Shown one piece after another: positions 11,304 through 32,551 of a stretch of DNA of 64,000 nucleotides. A model generated the notes under the pieces. That model saw only the letters and a program-made list of their open reading frames with translations, made no database searches and was not told the DNA's origin. The stretch lies in sequence record NC_005066.1. One strand, given 5' to 3'. The first letter of the stretch is position 1. Each line of letters starts with the position of its first letter. Made by a program: the position numbers and the translations under genes. The stretch is from Escherichia phage RB49.

Positions 11304-11610
11304 CAAGTTTTCTTCTATGTTCAAGTCGTGCAATCTTCCTTTCATGATTTCGTTGGTTCTTGTCTTCACAGTTTACCCACTCAACAAGATCTTTACCCAA
11401 CTCGAAAGCCCATTCTCGGTCTTGCTTTACGTTTTGTAGGTATGGACTTTCCGACACTCTACGAAGTGATGTTGTCGTAACAAGAATGATCCCATGAATG
11501 GTCGGATGTTCCTTTCCATATACAATAGGACGCGAGTCACTATCAATACCTTGTAAGAAGGTGTATCCTGAATCACTTAGAATCATATACTTTTTCATTT
11601 CACACATCAC
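11269..11610 (-). CDS. hypothetical protein (113 aa)
   Basis: Track ORF. Confidence 0.45.
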   Translation of the reverse strand: MMCEMKKYMILSDSGYTFLQGIDSDSRPIVYGKEHPTIHGIILVTTTSLRRVSESPYLQNVKQDREWAFELGKDLVEWVNCEDKNQRNHERKIARLEHRRKLDEIKNRILQSM

Positions 11611-11864
11611 AGTTTCCTCAACCAGTTATTAAAGCTAGCAAACCATGATGCTTTTCGTGCTTCTTTTACTTTATGTGCACGAAAACCACTGAAACACCAT
11701 TCATAATCATCACTGAAACATGATTCAACAGGAACACCCGCATTTCGTAGTTCTCTGGTCTTTATCATGAATCCTTGACATAAGGGGCGACCTTCAACAA
11801 TGATAGGAAGTTTAACTTTTTCCATGAAAGTATACCCAGCACGGTCAATAATTTCAATCTTCAT
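11607..11864 (-). CDS. hypothetical protein, paralog family B (85 aa)
   Basis: MKIEIIDRAGYTFMEKVKLPIIVEGR... near-duplicate of the 11883..12080 product. Confidence 0.55.
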   Translation of the reverse strand: MKIEIIDRAGYTFMEKVKLPIIVEGRPLCQGFMIKTRELRNAGVPVESCFSDDYEWCFSGFRAHKVKEARKASWFASFNNWLRKL

Positions 11865-11882
11865 AATATAATCCTCAATTAG

Positions 11883-12080
11883 TTATACCGCCCAGGCTTC
11901 ATTTGCACGAAAACACCATTCATACTCAGGAAAATAACCTTTAATTGGTACGCCAGCTTTTTGTAGTTCCTGTGTTTCTACAAGATAATCAAGCCCATAA
12001 CGACGACCTTCCACGATGATAGGAAGTTTAACGCCATTCATGAAAGAAAATCCACCGTCATCAATAATTTCAATTTTCAT
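11883..12080 (-). CDS. hypothetical protein, paralog family B (65 aa)
   Basis: MKIEIIDDGGFSFMNGVKLPIIVEGR...; tandem duplicate. Confidence 0.55.
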   Translation of the reverse strand: MKIEIIDDGGFSFMNGVKLPIIVEGRRYGLDYLVETQELQKAGVPIKGYFPEYEWCFRANEAWAV

Positions 12081-13265: not shown

Positions 13266-13322
13266 CTTTGATTCTCCTTAGTTGGTATGTGTGCATTATA
13301 GCACTATGATTTTCATTGTCAA
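13266..13322 (-). promoter_or_regulatory. early promoter cassette (TTGACA-16-TATAAT)
   Basis: rc of 13295-13322. Confidence 0.55.
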
Positions 13323-13330
13323 CAACTAAA

Positions 13331-13360
13331 AACAAAAAGGGCTATCCCGAAGGATAGCCC
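13331..13360 (-). terminator. rho-independent terminator downstream of the glycine-rich gene
   Basis: Perfect hairpin gggctatcc-cgaa-ggatagccc; T-run follows on the minus strand. Confidence 0.7.
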
Positions 13361-13366
13361 ATAAAA

Positions 13367-14143
13367 TTACACGCGAGCACCGTAGATCGTGCCTACTTTA
13401 TCCCAGCGTGGAGCATTACCAGTAACGGCTTTACCAGCAGCACCACCGTTATATTCTGTACCGTTCCCCTGAGTATTACATCTTCCTCCAGCAGCACCAA
13501 CGTTACCGCCCGCACCGCCTGTATATGCACTAAGAGACCCCTCACCAACAGATCCTTTACCCGGAGCGGAAATGGAGCCAGCGGTTGCACCAGAACCCAT
13601 ATTAGAGGAAGACCCACCAGCACCGAATGGGCGACCACCACCGCCACCAAATACTAGTCGACCCCTGTTACCGCCACCACCACCGCCACCACCGCCAGCG
13701 ATAGCACCGTTATTTGTAATTCGTAGACGTGTACCGATAGCGTTATTGATTGCGTTTCCACCAGCAGCGCCAGCCGCGTTACTACCACCGTTACCCCCAC
13801 GTCCGTAGACAGTCACACCGGAGTTAATGATCAATGTTACATATTCGTTTGTTAACGAGCTAGGGAAGTCAAGACAAGGAACGCCAGTAGATTGGGAAAC
13901 AATATTACCCGTGATAGTAATTACTACCGGAGTAGATCCTTGTGCTTTCATCCAGTTAATAAGAGTGTCTTTATTGTAAGAGTTACTAGCACCAATGCTA
14001 TAATGAATCTCTTTAGAGCGTCCGACCATTGCCGACATATACGCCGGACGACCTAAGCGAACAGCTTGCATTGCGGCGCTCATCCACCGTTGACCAGTCT
14101 CGGACACAGCCGATGATCCGACCCAACCTGCTTTAATTGCCAT
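13367..14143 (-). CDS. glycine-rich low-complexity protein (258 aa)
   Basis: About 100 aa non-repetitive N-terminus, then long Gly/Ala/Asn-rich region with a G9 run; strong RBS GAGGAAAC; flanked by terminators. Confidence 0.6.
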   Translation of the reverse strand: MAIKAGWVGSSAVSETGQRWMSAAMQAVRLGRPAYMSAMVGRSKEIHYSIGASNSYNKDTLINWMKAQGSTPVVITITGNIVSQSTGVPCLDFPSSLTNEYVTLIINSGVTVYGRGGNGGSNAAGAAGGNAINNAIGTRLRITNNGAIAGGGGGGGGGNRGRLVFGGGGGRPFGAGGSSSNMGSGATAGSISAPGKGSVGEGSLSAYTGGAGGNVGAAGGRCNTQGNGTEYNGGAAGKAVTGNAPRWDKVGTIYGARV

Positions 14144-14156
14144 AAAGTTTCCTCAC

Positions 14157-14179
14157 AAGAAAAGCCCCAATTAAGGGGC
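14157..14179 (-). terminator. terminator-like hairpin immediately upstream of the glycine-rich gene
   Basis: gcccc-ttaatt-ggggc followed by TTTTCTT on the minus strand, then the RBS. Confidence 0.5.
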
Positions 14180-14197
14180 ATTGATTGATAATATTAC

Positions 14198-14419
14198 TTA
14201 GATGATCTCTGCTTCACCATTCAGGAAGAAAGACCATGTTTTGTTAGGATAGCGAAGCGCCCATGATTCGGCAGTTTTAACACCAGCTTCGAACAATTGA
14301 CGGCTGGTCACTTTAGCCATACCATCTTCGATGGCAACGTTTTCAATAATCATCGGGTACTTAGCGCCACGCATGAAACCGAAGCCAGCGGAAGACTTGA
14401 TAATTTTAACAGTTGCCAT
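14198..14419 (-). CDS. hypothetical protein, paralog family B (about 74 aa)
   Basis: MATVKIIKSSAGFGFMRGAKYPMIIENV... resembles MKIEIID..GYTFM..VKLPIIVEG; start at 14417-14419 with cassette upstream. Confidence 0.5.
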   Translation of the reverse strand: MATVKIIKSSAGFGFMRGAKYPMIIENVAIEDGMAKVTSRQLFEAGVKTAESWALRYPNKTWSFFLNGEAEII

Positions 14420-14488
14420 TTTGATTCTCCTAGAAAGTGTATCTCGTTTCGATGGGTGTATTATGCAATAACACCGGATCGCTGTCAA
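14420..14488 (-). promoter_or_regulatory. early promoter cassette (TTGACA-17-CATAAT)
   Basis: Conserved leader CATCGAAACGAGATAC and GGAGAATCAAA RBS. Confidence 0.5.
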
Positions 14489-14792: not shown

Positions 14793-15139
14793 GCCATACC
14801 CCTTAAAACACTAATAGCATAATCATGCTGGTTATTCATAATATCAATTGCATTGTGATAACGAGCTAAACCATCAAGGATAAATTCTTGTTTATCCTGT
14901 TTCAGTTTGGTATCACGCGCAGCCATAAGAGCATCAAGAACAGGTCCAAAGTGATTATCTAATTCATCTTCGGTTGCAATGTTTCCTATTGCCTCGTCGA
15001 TCCGTGATTCTAATGCTTGCTTTTCGTTGATCACTTGCTGGGTATATTCCAACACATCAAGAATATCGCGGGTAACGTCGCCATGATAAGGTGTTCCCGC
15101 ATGAAGGTAATCAATTAGTCGTTGAATGTCAATGTTCAT
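14789..15139 (-). CDS. hypothetical protein (116 aa)
   Basis: Track ORF; 4 nt overlap with downstream gene. Confidence 0.45.
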   Translation of the reverse strand: MNIDIQRLIDYLHAGTPYHGDVTRDILDVLEYTQQVINEKQALESRIDEAIGNIATEDELDNHFGPVLDALMAARDTKLKQDKQEFILDGLARYHNAIDIMNNQHDYAISVLRGMA

Positions 15140-15474
15140 TTGTAACCCTCCTCTGAAAGTACATCCCAGATCGTTGAGTCAAGGTGCATTAAATTCCACA
15201 TAATAGAGTCATAACTACCGAAGCCAGAAGTAAAAATTACATCACACTGGCGATAGGTCTTATGAAAATCGGTGGCTGTCTCTGCATCAATAGGCATATC
15301 GTCACCGGAAAGCACCAGACATTTAAGAATCATAACTCTGTTAGCCGTTGGCGCTTGCTTAGTCTTTTCAGCATATTTTTCGATGATCCGTTTTGCCTTT
15401 TCTTCTTTGATACGTCCAGACCAAATCCGGTTTCGGTATTGATTCATAATAATTTCAATCACATCATTTTGCAT
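15136..15474 (-). CDS. hypothetical protein (112 aa)
   Basis: Track ORF. Confidence 0.45.
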   Translation of the reverse strand: MQNDVIEIIMNQYRNRIWSGRIKEEKAKRIIEKYAEKTKQAPTANRVMILKCLVLSGDDMPIDAETATDFHKTYRQCDVIFTSGFGSYDSIMWNLMHLDSTIWDVLSEEGYK

Positions 15475-15674: not shown

Positions 15675-15732
15675 TTTGATTCTCCTTTGTTGTCGATGTG
15701 TGCATTATGCTATACTCTATTCCGGTTGTCAA
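15675..15732 (-). promoter_or_regulatory. early promoter cassette (TTGACA-17-CATAAT)
   Basis: rc of 15704-15732. Confidence 0.5.
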
Positions 15733-15739
15733 CACCTAA

Positions 15740-15772
15740 AAACGAAAAAGCCACCCTTTCGGATGGCTTTTT
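15740..15772. terminator. hairpin terminator with A-run upstream and T-run downstream (potentially bidirectional)
   Basis: aaaaacgaaaaa-gccaccctttcggatggc-tttttg. Confidence 0.55.
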
Positions 15773-16723: not shown

Positions 16724-16731
16724 TATTTATA
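16724..16731 (-). promoter_or_regulatory. T4-type late promoter core TATAAATA (minus strand)
   Basis: Plus tatttata = rc TATAAATA, about 34 nt upstream of the ATG at 16690; sits in the loop of palindrome ccccagatt..aatctgggg. Confidence 0.4.
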
Positions 16732-26888: not shown

Positions 26889-27107
26889 TTATTTATATCG
26901 CTTTCTCTCGCGACGTTTTTGGTCTTCTTCCTTGATAGAGTTAAATGCATCAAAAAGACACATGGCACTAATAATAAACATAACCGTATTTTCTACGATA
27001 TCCCACGGCTTCGCATCAGTACAGATCCCCCAAACGGTAAGAAATGCAAATAAGGCAGAAGAGATCACAAGCATGATACTTGCTAAGATATAAAAAGTCA
27101 TTTTCAT
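26889..27107 (-). CDS. small hydrophobic membrane protein (72 aa)
   Basis: TM helices; basic C-terminus. Confidence 0.4.
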   Translation of the reverse strand: MKMTFYILASIMLVISSALFAFLTVWGICTDAKPWDIVENTVMFIISAMCLFDAFNSIKEEDQKRRERKRYK

Positions 27108-32543: not shown

Positions 32544-32551
32544 TATAAATA
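32544..32551 (+). promoter_or_regulatory. T4-type late promoter TATAAATA (gene 53)
   Basis: Exact TATAAATA 33 nt upstream of gene 53 ATG. Confidence 0.6.

What the first reader, a model, noticed from the sequence alone, without database searches (positions are those of the whole stretch)
13367..14143. Glycine-rich low-complexity protein flanked by terminators
The 258-aa product has a roughly 100-residue ordinary N-terminal region followed by an extremely Gly/Ala/Asn-rich C-terminal region (GGNGGSNAAGAAGGNA, GGGGGGGGGNRGRLVFGGGGGRPFGAGG). This composition recalls glycine-rich translocation or fibre-like domains and some secreted bacteriocins. The gene has a strong RBS, no obvious promoter of its own, a hairpin terminator immediately upstream (14157-14179) and a perfect terminator downstream (13331-13360), so it looks like an insulated insertion whose expression needs read-through.
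Basis: seen in the sequence. Interest (0 to 1): 0.6.

Follow-up and report, generated by a model that had tools for sequence, protein, structure and literature searches.

The report
Phage tail-fibre adhesin gene gp38
The glycine-rich ORF is gp38, the well-studied receptor-binding protein that caps the long tail fibres of RB49-like (Krischvirus) coliphages, so the finding is real but ordinary and already explained.

Summary
There is a 258-aa ORF at 13367-14143 (-) with an ordinary N-terminal part and a C-terminal 144 residues that are 34% Gly. A weak hairpin with a U-tract lies just upstream and a strong terminator just downstream.

The ORF is the gp38 long-tail-fibre adhesin. It matches Pfam GP38 (7e-72) and Gp38_N (6e-18). 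It aligns end to end with the solved Salmonella phage S16 gp38 (PDB 6F45_D, 1.5e-50, 50% identity). It differs from RB49 gp38 at 3 of 258 residues. The window is a Krischvirus genome, 95-97% identical in DNA to Phi1, JSE and RB49.

The glycine-rich motifs form the polyglycine-II sandwich, which presents hypervariable receptor-binding loops. In RB49, host-range mutations map to E230 and Y231 of this protein, and its reported receptors are OmpA and some O antigens.

The "insulated insertion" look is real, but published. In these phages g38 lies about 55 kb from g37, in an early hyperplastic region full of promoter/stem-loop (PeSL) cassettes. I found the matching empty site in phage kvi and about a dozen other Krischvirus genomes. 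At least ten of them carry g38 next to g37 instead.

The only open point is how g38 is transcribed. No late promoter lies within 2.5 kb upstream.

The antisense proline-rich ORF is a mirror artefact.

The parts
13367..14143 (-). g38 coding sequence (258 aa plus stop): long-tail-fibre tip adhesin gp38
   Evidence: ORF list. Pfam GP38 7.3e-72 and Gp38_N 6e-18. PHROG 2056, tail fiber protein; host specificity, 3e-98. PDB 6F45_D 1.5e-50 over residues 1-256. Annotated gp38 in Phi1. 3 of 258 residues differ from RB49.
14024..14143 (-). Codons 1-40: N-terminal domain that attaches gp38 to the gp37 fibre tip
   Evidence: Pfam PF21721 Gp38_N matches residues 1-40 over its full profile. W7 and W20 are invariant among 10 gp38 sequences. 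The third attachment Trp of S16 is Tyr35 here.
13370..13801 (-). Codons 115-258: glycine-rich motifs alternating with hypervariable segments (polyglycine-sandwich, receptor-binding part)
   Evidence: 34% Gly. The Gly motifs are invariant while the segments between them vary and carry indels. The G9 run at 150-158 aligns with the poly-Gly run of S16 gp38, which is described as PGII helix 3 in PMC6851490.
14150..14154 (-). Shine-Dalgarno GAGGA, 6 nt before the ATG
   Evidence: Read directly from the sequence. Conserved in Phi1, GEC-3S, Makalu_002, E26 and RB49.
14157..14179 (-). Upstream GC hairpin (5 bp stem, 6-nt loop) plus UUUUCUU: a weak terminator or attenuator between the ORF080 homologue and g38
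   Evidence: Consensus scan. Stem-loop energy -10.0 kcal/mol. Annotated as a terminator in GEC-3S. Identical in all six HPR-type relatives, so there is no covariation evidence.
13329..13360 (-). Strong intrinsic terminator after g38 (9-bp stem, UUCG loop, U-run); also serves as the stem-loop of the downstream PeSL
   Evidence: Energy -17.7 kcal/mol, z -5.1. Annotated as a terminator in GEC-3S and Makalu_002.
13295..13322 (-). Perfect sigma-70 promoter (TTGACA-16-TATAAT with TG) for the next early ORF; the promoter half of a PeSL cassette
   Evidence: 12 of 12 consensus match. PeSL description in Arbiol 2010, PMC2839356.
13326..14197 (-). The g38 cassette (872 bp): the segment present here and absent from the empty site of kvi-type Krischvirus
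   Evidence: Filled-site versus empty-site alignments. 13 of 57 records have the contiguous empty site.
14198..14419 (-). Small ORF (Phi1 ORF080 homologue, 73 aa) immediately upstream, probably co-transcribed with g38
   Evidence: No Pfam family found.
14460..14488 (-). Sigma-70-like promoter (TTGACA-17-CATAAT) with an AT-rich upstream region: the nearest promoter that could drive g38
   Evidence: 11 of 12 match. Sequence read. Annotated as a promoter in GEC-3S.
16724..16731 (-). Nearest T4-type late promoter core (TATAAATA) on the g38 strand, in front of rI, about 2.6 kb upstream of g38
   Evidence: It probably corresponds to the only minus-strand late promoter predicted in this region of RB49 (Pl:48756, supplement of PMC1524935). 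In RB49 the nearest TATAAATA is 2585 nt upstream of g38.

Best explanation
The ORF is g38, the receptor-recognising adhesin of the long tail fibre of an RB49-like (Krischvirus) coliphage.

Mechanism, taken from the solved S16 homologue and from RB49 genetics:
- One gp38 monomer caps the trimeric gp37 fibre tip through its N-terminal domain.
- A short beta-helix carries two long excursions. Their glycine-rich motifs pack as polyglycine-II helices into a three-layer sandwich.
- The hypervariable segments between the motifs form the distal loops that bind the host receptor. For RB49 the reported receptors are OmpA and certain O antigens.
- The conserved Gly motifs also serve as recombination points that shuffle the loops between phages.

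The gene is not next to g37. It sits as an 872-bp cassette (leader hairpin, RBS, g38, terminator) in an early hyperplastic region, between the stop codon of a small ORF and the -35 box of a PeSL promoter.

How it is transcribed is inferred, not shown. The most likely route is the sigma-70-type promoter at 14488-14460, then the small ORF, then partial read-through of the weak hairpin at 14179-14164. The strong terminator at 13360-13339 ends the unit. A low read-through yield would fit the small demand of six gp38 copies per virion.
For: Identity:
- Pfam GP38 at 242 bits (cut-off 25) and Gp38_N at 65 bits; PHROG 2056.
- Full-length match to PDB 6F45_D at 1.5e-50, with 50% identity over 244 aligned residues. 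A second solved gp38, 9v85, matches at 3.7e-35.
- 98.8% identical to RB49 gp38.
- The window is 95-97% identical in DNA to Krischvirus genomes that annotate this gene as gp38.

Architecture:
- Gly motifs are invariant and the segments between them vary and carry indels across 10 gp38 sequences.
- Identity is mosaic. kvi codons 150-245 are 90-100% identical in DNA to the window while its flanks are 45-70%. Pu-Krd-SF3 codons 46-80 are 97-100% identical.
- Purifying selection acts on this frame.

Function, from the literature:
- S16 gp38 structure and the polyglycine sandwich (PMC6851490).
- RB49 host-range mutants E230K and Y231S in gp38 (PMC9569957). Both residues are present here.
- OmpA as the RB49 receptor (bioRxiv 10.64898/2026.04.02.716166).

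Cassette:
- Empty site in kvi.
- 13 of 57 records have a contiguous empty site.
- At least 10 empty-site genomes have g37-g38-small ORF-holin.

Transcription:
- Promoter and terminator scans and hairpin energies.
- No TATAAATA closer than 16724-16731.
- A hairpin precedes the g38 RBS in 5 of 5 canonical loci.
- RB49 lacks MotA and an AsiA orthologue is not listed for it (PMC1524935).
Against: Nothing argues against the identification.

For the transcription route there are no data at all. I found no transcriptome or 5'-end mapping for any Krischvirus, and I could not read Desplats 2002.

A virion protein made from an early-type promoter is unusual for T4-like phages. A late transcript from the rI promoter that reads through two stem-loops, or a non-consensus late promoter, cannot be excluded.

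The upstream hairpin is identical in all HPR-type relatives, so nothing shows that it is selected as a structure.

One of the three attachment tryptophans of S16 gp38 is Tyr here (Y35).
Confidence: 0.97

Rival explanations
1. g38 is made as a true late gene. Transcription starts at the T4-type late promoter in front of rI (16724-16731) and reads through the stem-loops at 15772-15745 and 14179-14164. Alternatively it starts at an unrecognised non-consensus late promoter nearer the gene.
For: gp38 is a virion part and is needed only when gp37 fibres are assembled. The only consensus late promoter on this strand upstream of g38 is at 16724-16731, and the same holds in RB49. One single-mismatch site, TATGAATA, lies at 14833-14840.
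Against: The promoter is 2.6 kb away, and two terminator-like structures lie in between. One has a 12-bp stem and a U-run. The single-mismatch site lies inside an ORF and nothing supports it. There are no expression data either way.
Confidence: 0.3
2. The protein is a T4-gp38-type assembly chaperone, the 'distal long tail fiber assembly catalyst' of several database records, rather than an adhesin that stays on the fibre.
For: JSE, teqhal and GEC-3S records carry that product name.
Against: The name is a legacy transfer from T4. The sequence belongs to the adhesin family (Pfam 'Phage tail fibre adhesin Gp38') and aligns with the S16 adhesin solved in complex with gp37. T4 gp38 is stated to be very different in sequence (PMC6851490). 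RB49 host-range mutations map to this protein.
Confidence: 0.02
3. A secreted glycine-rich bacteriocin, or a colicin-like translocation domain, carried as a moron.
For: Only the Gly/Ala/Asn-rich composition and the insulated position among small ORFs of unknown function.
Against: No bacteriocin or colicin family is found at E<=1. Homology to gp38 adhesins runs the full length. The gene is exchanged position for position with the g38 next to g37 in sister phages.
Confidence: 0.005
4. The expressed product is the opposite-strand proline-rich ORF (13572-13808, +).
For: A 78-codon ATG-initiated ORF exists.
Against: It is the shifted reverse complement of GGY codons. That frame has no stop-free stretch of 60 codons or more in kvi, Pu-Krd-SF7 or T6, and the stretch is shorter in several others. 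Substitutions follow the codon positions of the sense frame.
Confidence: 0.005

Closest known systems
gp38 of coliphage RB49 and its relatives Phi1, JSE, ELT3 (Krischvirus)
   Same: Same gene at the same displaced position, with the same leader hairpin and terminator. 255 of 258 residues are identical to RB49 and 98% to Phi1. RB49 gp38 is the experimentally supported long-tail-fibre adhesin (PMC9569957; bioRxiv 10.64898/2026.04.02.716166).
   Different: Three substitutions relative to RB49: K4S, A5S and G183S. Only G183S lies in the receptor-binding part. Its effect on host range is unknown.
gp38 of Salmonella phage S16 (PDB 6F45, chain D; Dunne et al. 2018)
   Same: The alignment covers residues 1-256 at E 1.5e-50 with 50% identity. 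[quoted passage not shown]
   Different: The hypervariable loops differ. The third attachment Trp is Tyr35 here. In S16 the gene lies beside g37. The 3D fold of this protein was not modelled here.
gp38 adhesins of T2, T6 and Ox2 (Tequatrovirus), with the GRM/HVS architecture of Trojet et al. 2011
   Same: Same family and same alternation of conserved glycine-rich motifs with hypervariable segments. Same mosaic exchange at the Gly motifs.
   Different: 58-63% protein identity to T6-type sequences. The N-terminal domain is of a different type. Those genes lie directly after g37 and before the holin gene t.
PeSL (promoter-early stem-loop) cassettes of RB49 and phi1 (Arbiol et al. 2010)
   Same: The element after g38 (stem-loop 13360-13339, then TTGACA-16-TATAAT, then AAGGAGAATCAAA-ATG) has the described parts and lies in a hyperplastic region. 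The cassette boundary falls at the -35 box.
   Different: The hairpin in front of g38 has no promoter attached, and its leader differs from the PeSL leader. The paper text does not mention g38.
T4 gp38
   Same: Same gene number, and a historical role in the long tail fibre.
   Different: A chaperone that is not part of the virion. It is stated to be very different in sequence (PMC6851490). In T4 the receptor is bound by the gp37 tip itself.

Membership tests
gp38 tail-fibre adhesin (Pfam PF05268 GP38 plus PF21721 Gp38_N) | Sequence match to both family profiles above the curated thresholds | tested here: met
   242.2 bits (cut-off 25), profile positions 1-218 of 218. 65 bits (cut-off 25), profile positions 1-40 of 40.
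gp38 tail-fibre adhesin | Full-length homology to a gp38 solved in complex with the gp37 tip | tested here: met
   6F45_D at E 1.5e-50, query residues 1-256 against chain residues 1-247. 50% identity.
gp38 tail-fibre adhesin | C-terminal conserved glycine-rich motifs alternating with hypervariable segments | tested here: met
   Alignment of 10 gp38 sequences: the Gly motifs (G114-G120, G150-G158, G166-G177, G209-G213, G219-G220, G233-G237) are invariant. The segments between them vary and hold the indels.
gp38 tail-fibre adhesin | Three conserved tryptophans of the N-terminal attachment domain (S16 structure) | tested here: inconclusive
   W7 and W20 are invariant. The third position is Tyr35 in all HPR-type Krischvirus sequences and Trp in T6-type and S16 sequences. 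An aromatic residue is kept. This is a structural detail rather than a defining feature.
gp38 tail-fibre adhesin | Three-layer polyglycine-II sandwich fold | not tested
   No structure model was made. The fold is inferred from the end-to-end alignment with 6F45_D and the published description.
gp38 tail-fibre adhesin | Present on the virion fibre tip and determines receptor choice | not testable with these tools
   Literature on the 98.8% identical RB49 protein: host-range mutations E230K and Y231S, and OmpA as receptor.
Canonical g37-g38-t locus of T-even phages | g38 immediately downstream of g37 and upstream of the holin gene | tested here: not met
   Here g38 lies between ORF080 and ORF078 homologues in the nrdC-tk early region. 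This is a known exception for RB49-type phages. It concerns the locus, not the protein family.
PeSL cassette (Arbiol 2010) | Near-consensus sigma-70 promoter combined with a stable stem-loop, intergenic, in a hyperplastic region, followed by SD and ATG | tested here: met
   The stretch 13360-13295 holds a -17.7 kcal/mol stem-loop and a 12 of 12 promoter match. Similar units lie at 15772-15704 and 14488-14460. Promoter and terminator activity are not testable here.
Glycine-rich bacteriocins / colicin translocation domains | Match to a bacteriocin or colicin domain family | tested here: not met
   A Pfam scan at E<=1 returns only GP38 and Gp38_N.

The most novel reading that the evidence does not exclude
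In RB49-type phages the tail-fibre adhesin may be expressed outside the late programme. In this reading it is transcribed from a sigma-70 early-type promoter, through an attenuating hairpin, in a phage for which no MotA has been found. The 872-bp g38 unit would then be a self-contained cassette that recombination at PeSL promoters can move into or out of the hyperplastic region. That would explain why Krischvirus genomes carry g38 either here or beside g37.
Probability: 0.35. Interest if true: 0.3.

Novelty: already known. Interest (0 to 1): 0.08.

Why it matters
gp38 is the main host-range determinant of most T-even-like phages. It is a target for engineering phage specificity, so recognising it matters for annotating this genome. 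As a discovery it adds nothing: the protein family, its structure, its receptors and its displaced position in RB49-like phages are all published. The one loose end with some value is regulatory: how a virion protein is produced from a gene that sits in an early region, behind a hairpin, with no late promoter nearby.

Tried and rejected
- Late-promoter search. Exact TATAAATA gives 9 sites in the window, none within 2.5 kb upstream of g38. With one mismatch the only candidate between g38 and rI is TATGAATA at 14833-14840, inside an ORF.
- Rfam scan of the whole window: no hits, so no known RNA element in the leader.
- Pfam on seven neighbouring small ORFs: one DUF7238 hit and one Csm6_6H match below its curated cut-off, so no functional link to g38.
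- Literature search for Krischvirus transcriptomes and for virion proteomics of RB49-type phages: nothing usable.
- Desplats 2002, the first description of the displaced g38, is not held in the library.
- Arbiol 2010 does not mention g38.
- I looked for a direct repeat or target-site duplication at the cassette ends. Only a weak T(C/T)TA(A/G) resemblance is there, and I make no claim from it.
- I did not run the large protein-database searches or a structure prediction. The full-length match to a solved homologue already settles identity.
- The bacteriocin, chaperone and antisense-ORF readings were considered and rejected (see the rival explanations).

Full report
**1. Observation**

- Residues 1-114 have ordinary composition (9.6% Gly).
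- Residues 115-258 are 34% Gly, 15% Ala and 10% Asn, with a run of nine Gly at 150-158 and five at 166-170.
- GAGGA lies 6 nt before the ATG.
- Upstream there is a 5-bp all-GC hairpin with a 6-nt loop at 14179-14164, followed by UUUUCUU. The stem-loop alone is -10.0 kcal/mol.
- Downstream there is a 9-bp stem with a UUCG loop at 13360-13339 and a U-run. It folds at -17.7 kcal/mol, z = -5.1, and none of 200 shuffles does as well.
- No sigma-70-like promoter and no T4-type late promoter core lies between the upstream hairpin and the start codon.

**2. What it is**

The window is a Krischvirus (RB49-like, T4-related) coliphage genome.
- The 1.6 kb around the ORF is 95-97% identical to ELT3, KFS-EC, RB49, JSE and Phi1.
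- The rest of the window fits. The minus strand carries nrdD, dam, nrdC, rI and tk by synteny with Phi1, and I confirmed rI itself by Pfam (Antiholin). From about 32.5 kb the plus strand carries gp5, gp7, gp10, a collar-domain fibre protein, fibritin, the gp18 sheath and the gp23 capsid protein.

The ORF product is gp38.
- It matches Pfam GP38, "Phage tail fibre adhesin Gp38", at 7.3e-72 over the whole profile, and Gp38_N at 6e-18.
- It matches PHROG 2056, "tail fiber protein; host specificity".
- It matches the crystallised gp38 of Salmonella phage S16 (PDB 6F45 chain D) at 1.5e-50 over residues 1-256, with 50% identity. A second solved gp38 (9v85) also matches.
- Phi1 annotates the same ORF as "gp38 distal long tail fiber adhesin".
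- It differs from RB49 gp38 at three residues: K4S, A5S and G183S.
- tblastn finds relatives in 794 phage records, including T2, T6 and Ox2.

**3. How the protein works (from homologues)**

In S16, one gp38 monomer caps the gp37 trimer through an N-terminal helical domain. A five-ring beta-helix follows. Two long excursions from it carry ten glycine-rich motifs that fold as polyglycine-II helices into a three-layer "polyglycine sandwich". The hypervariable segments between the motifs form the distal loops proposed to bind the receptor (PMC6851490; PMC12032242).

The sequence here shows that organisation. In an alignment of ten gp38 sequences from Krischvirus and Tequatrovirus-like phages, the Gly motifs are invariant and the segments between them vary and hold the indels.

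Identity along the gene is mosaic.
- kvi is 90-100% identical in DNA to the window over codons 150-245, but only 45-70% on either side.
- Pu-Krd-SF3, whose flanking genes (holin t, asiA, motA) are Tequatrovirus-like, is 97-100% identical over codons 46-80.

This is the known shuffling at conserved motifs (Trojet 2011).

Differences from relatives fall mostly on third codon positions (4/4/23 against Phi1, 23/24/82 against GEC-3S), so this frame is under purifying selection.

Function in this lineage rests on published genetics.
- RB49 mutants with extended host range differ from wild type only by E230K, or E230K plus Y231S, in gp38 (PMC9569957). Both residues are present here.
- A large receptor screen assigns OmpA to RB49 (bioRxiv 10.64898/2026.04.02.716166).
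- One detail differs from S16: of the three attachment tryptophans, the third is Tyr35 in all HPR-type Krischvirus sequences.

**4. The "insulated insertion"**

In T-even phages g38 follows g37 and precedes the holin gene (teqhal, T6, Pu-Krd-SF3 and Pu-Krd-SF7). Here it lies among small ORFs of unknown function in the early nrdC-tk region, on the early-gene strand.

This displacement has been published several times.
- Trojet 2011, citing Desplats 2002.
- The 2026 preprint: "approximately 55 kb downstream of gp37".
- PMC12032242, which notes that FL37 and FL38 differ from FL04, FL15 and FL20 in g38 position.

I could add the exact anatomy. In phage kvi, a Krischvirus, the homologues of ORF080 and ORF078 are 61 nt apart. 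The stop codon of ORF080 is followed at once by TTGTTGACA, a stem-loop, TATAAT and the conserved leader. Aligning the two states puts the left edge of the extra DNA right after the stop codon (14197) and the right edge at the -35 box (13326). The promoter spacer also differs between the two states.

The 872-bp unit holds a 54-nt leader with the hairpin, g38 and the terminator.
- Of 57 Krischvirus records that match the empty-site probe, 13 have the contiguous empty site. A 14th, FL04, is cut off by the end of the record. The rest are split by the cassette. GenBank and RefSeq duplicates inflate these counts somewhat.
- At least ten of the empty-site genomes have g37-g38-small ORF-holin. Their g37 tip and g38 5' half are about 88-90% identical to Tequatrovirus phages such as RB14 and HP3.

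So the two positions are alternatives. The kvi-type group looks like a fibre-tip module swap followed by, or coupled to, loss of the cassette. That direction is an inference, supported only by the RB49-type patch inside the kvi g38.

The element after g38 is a typical PeSL cassette (stem-loop plus near-perfect sigma-70 promoter) of the kind proposed to mediate modular shuffling in RB49 and phi1 (Arbiol 2010). Similar units lie at 15772-15704 and 14488-14460.

**5. Expression**

This is the only open question.
- The nearest TATAAATA on the g38 strand is at 16724-16731, in front of rI and 2.6 kb upstream.
- In RB49 it is likewise 2585 nt upstream. It probably corresponds to the only minus-strand late promoter that Nolan et al. 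predicted in this part of RB49.
- Between it and g38 lie a 12-bp terminator-like stem and the weak hairpin.
- The nearest promoter of any kind is the sigma-70-type site at 14488-14460, in front of the 73-codon ORF080 homologue. GEC-3S annotates it as a promoter.
- Attempts to find a motA orthologue or a middle-promoter consensus in RB49 failed, and RB49 is not among the phages listed with an AsiA orthologue (PMC1524935).
- A GC-rich hairpin between the g37 stop codon and the g38 RBS is present in all five canonical loci I looked at (-7.9 to -12.5 kcal/mol). Transcription through a hairpin is therefore the normal situation for g38, not a peculiarity of this copy.

My best guess is transcription from 14488-14460 with partial read-through of the hairpin. 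A low yield would match the six copies needed per virion. A late transcript from the rI promoter is the main rival. I found no expression data.

**6. Antisense ORF**

The proline-rich ORF at 13572..13808 (+) is the shifted reverse complement of GGY codons; 48 of the 60 Gly codons are GGT or GGC. In kvi, Pu-Krd-SF7 and T6 that frame has no stop-free stretch of 60 codons or more. It is not a gene.

**7. Verdict**

The feature is already known in every respect that matters, so interest is low.

Noticed in passing
window 15704-15772, 14460-14488 and 13295-13360 (- strand): Repeated promoter/stem-loop (PeSL-type) units, each followed by nearly the same leader, AAGGAGAATCAAA-ATG. The g38 leader (GAGGAAACTTT-ATG) is of a different kind, which suggests that g38 arrived with its own translation signals.
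   Followed up: partly
window 11607-11864 and 11883-12080 (-); also 14198-14419 (-): Two adjacent small ORFs are paralogues (53% identity, E 1e-23, both starting MKIEIID). By eye, the ORF just upstream of g38 shares their N-terminal motif (xKIIxxxAGFxFMxGxKxPxIxE). No Pfam family was found.
   Followed up: partly
L005 3980-4759 (phage kvi g38) against window 13367-14143: The kvi g38, which sits beside g37, is a chimera. Codons 150-245 are 90-100% identical in DNA to the window's displaced g38, while both ends are T6-like (45-70%). The recombination points lie in or next to glycine-rich motifs.
   Followed up: partly
L008 3480-4265 (Pu-Krd-SF3, with Tequatrovirus-like flanking genes): Codons 46-80 of its g38 are 97-100% identical in DNA to the window's gene, although the phages appear to belong to different genera. 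This looks like a recent cross-genus exchange of part of the N-terminal / beta-helix region.
   Followed up: no
window 14039-14041 (codon 35 of g38): The third of the three attachment tryptophans described for S16 gp38 is Tyr in all Krischvirus gp38 sequences at the displaced site, and Trp in T6-type sequences. It may reflect co-adaptation to the RB49-type gp37 tip.
   Followed up: no
window 16724-16731 (-) and 32544-32551, 43345, 54803, 60384, 61237, 62996, 63560 (+): Exact TATAAATA late-promoter cores. There are only two on the minus strand: before rI at 16724-16731, and at 26890. Seven lie on the plus strand, from about 32.5 kb onward where the virion module runs. The total of 9 is not above chance (16 of 100 shuffles reach it), so only their placement is suggestive.
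   Followed up: partly
window 15136-15474 (-): A 112-aa ORF matches Pfam DUF7238 over its whole length (1.7e-51). It is a conserved family of unknown function in the same early transcription block as g38.
   Followed up: no
window 13666-13695 (codons 150-159 of g38): The nine-Gly run is encoded by an imperfect GGT/GGC tandem repeat, annotated as a repeat region in TB34 and kvi. Its length is nevertheless invariant in all ten gp38 sequences compared, so it appears constrained rather than slippage-prone.
   Followed up: partly
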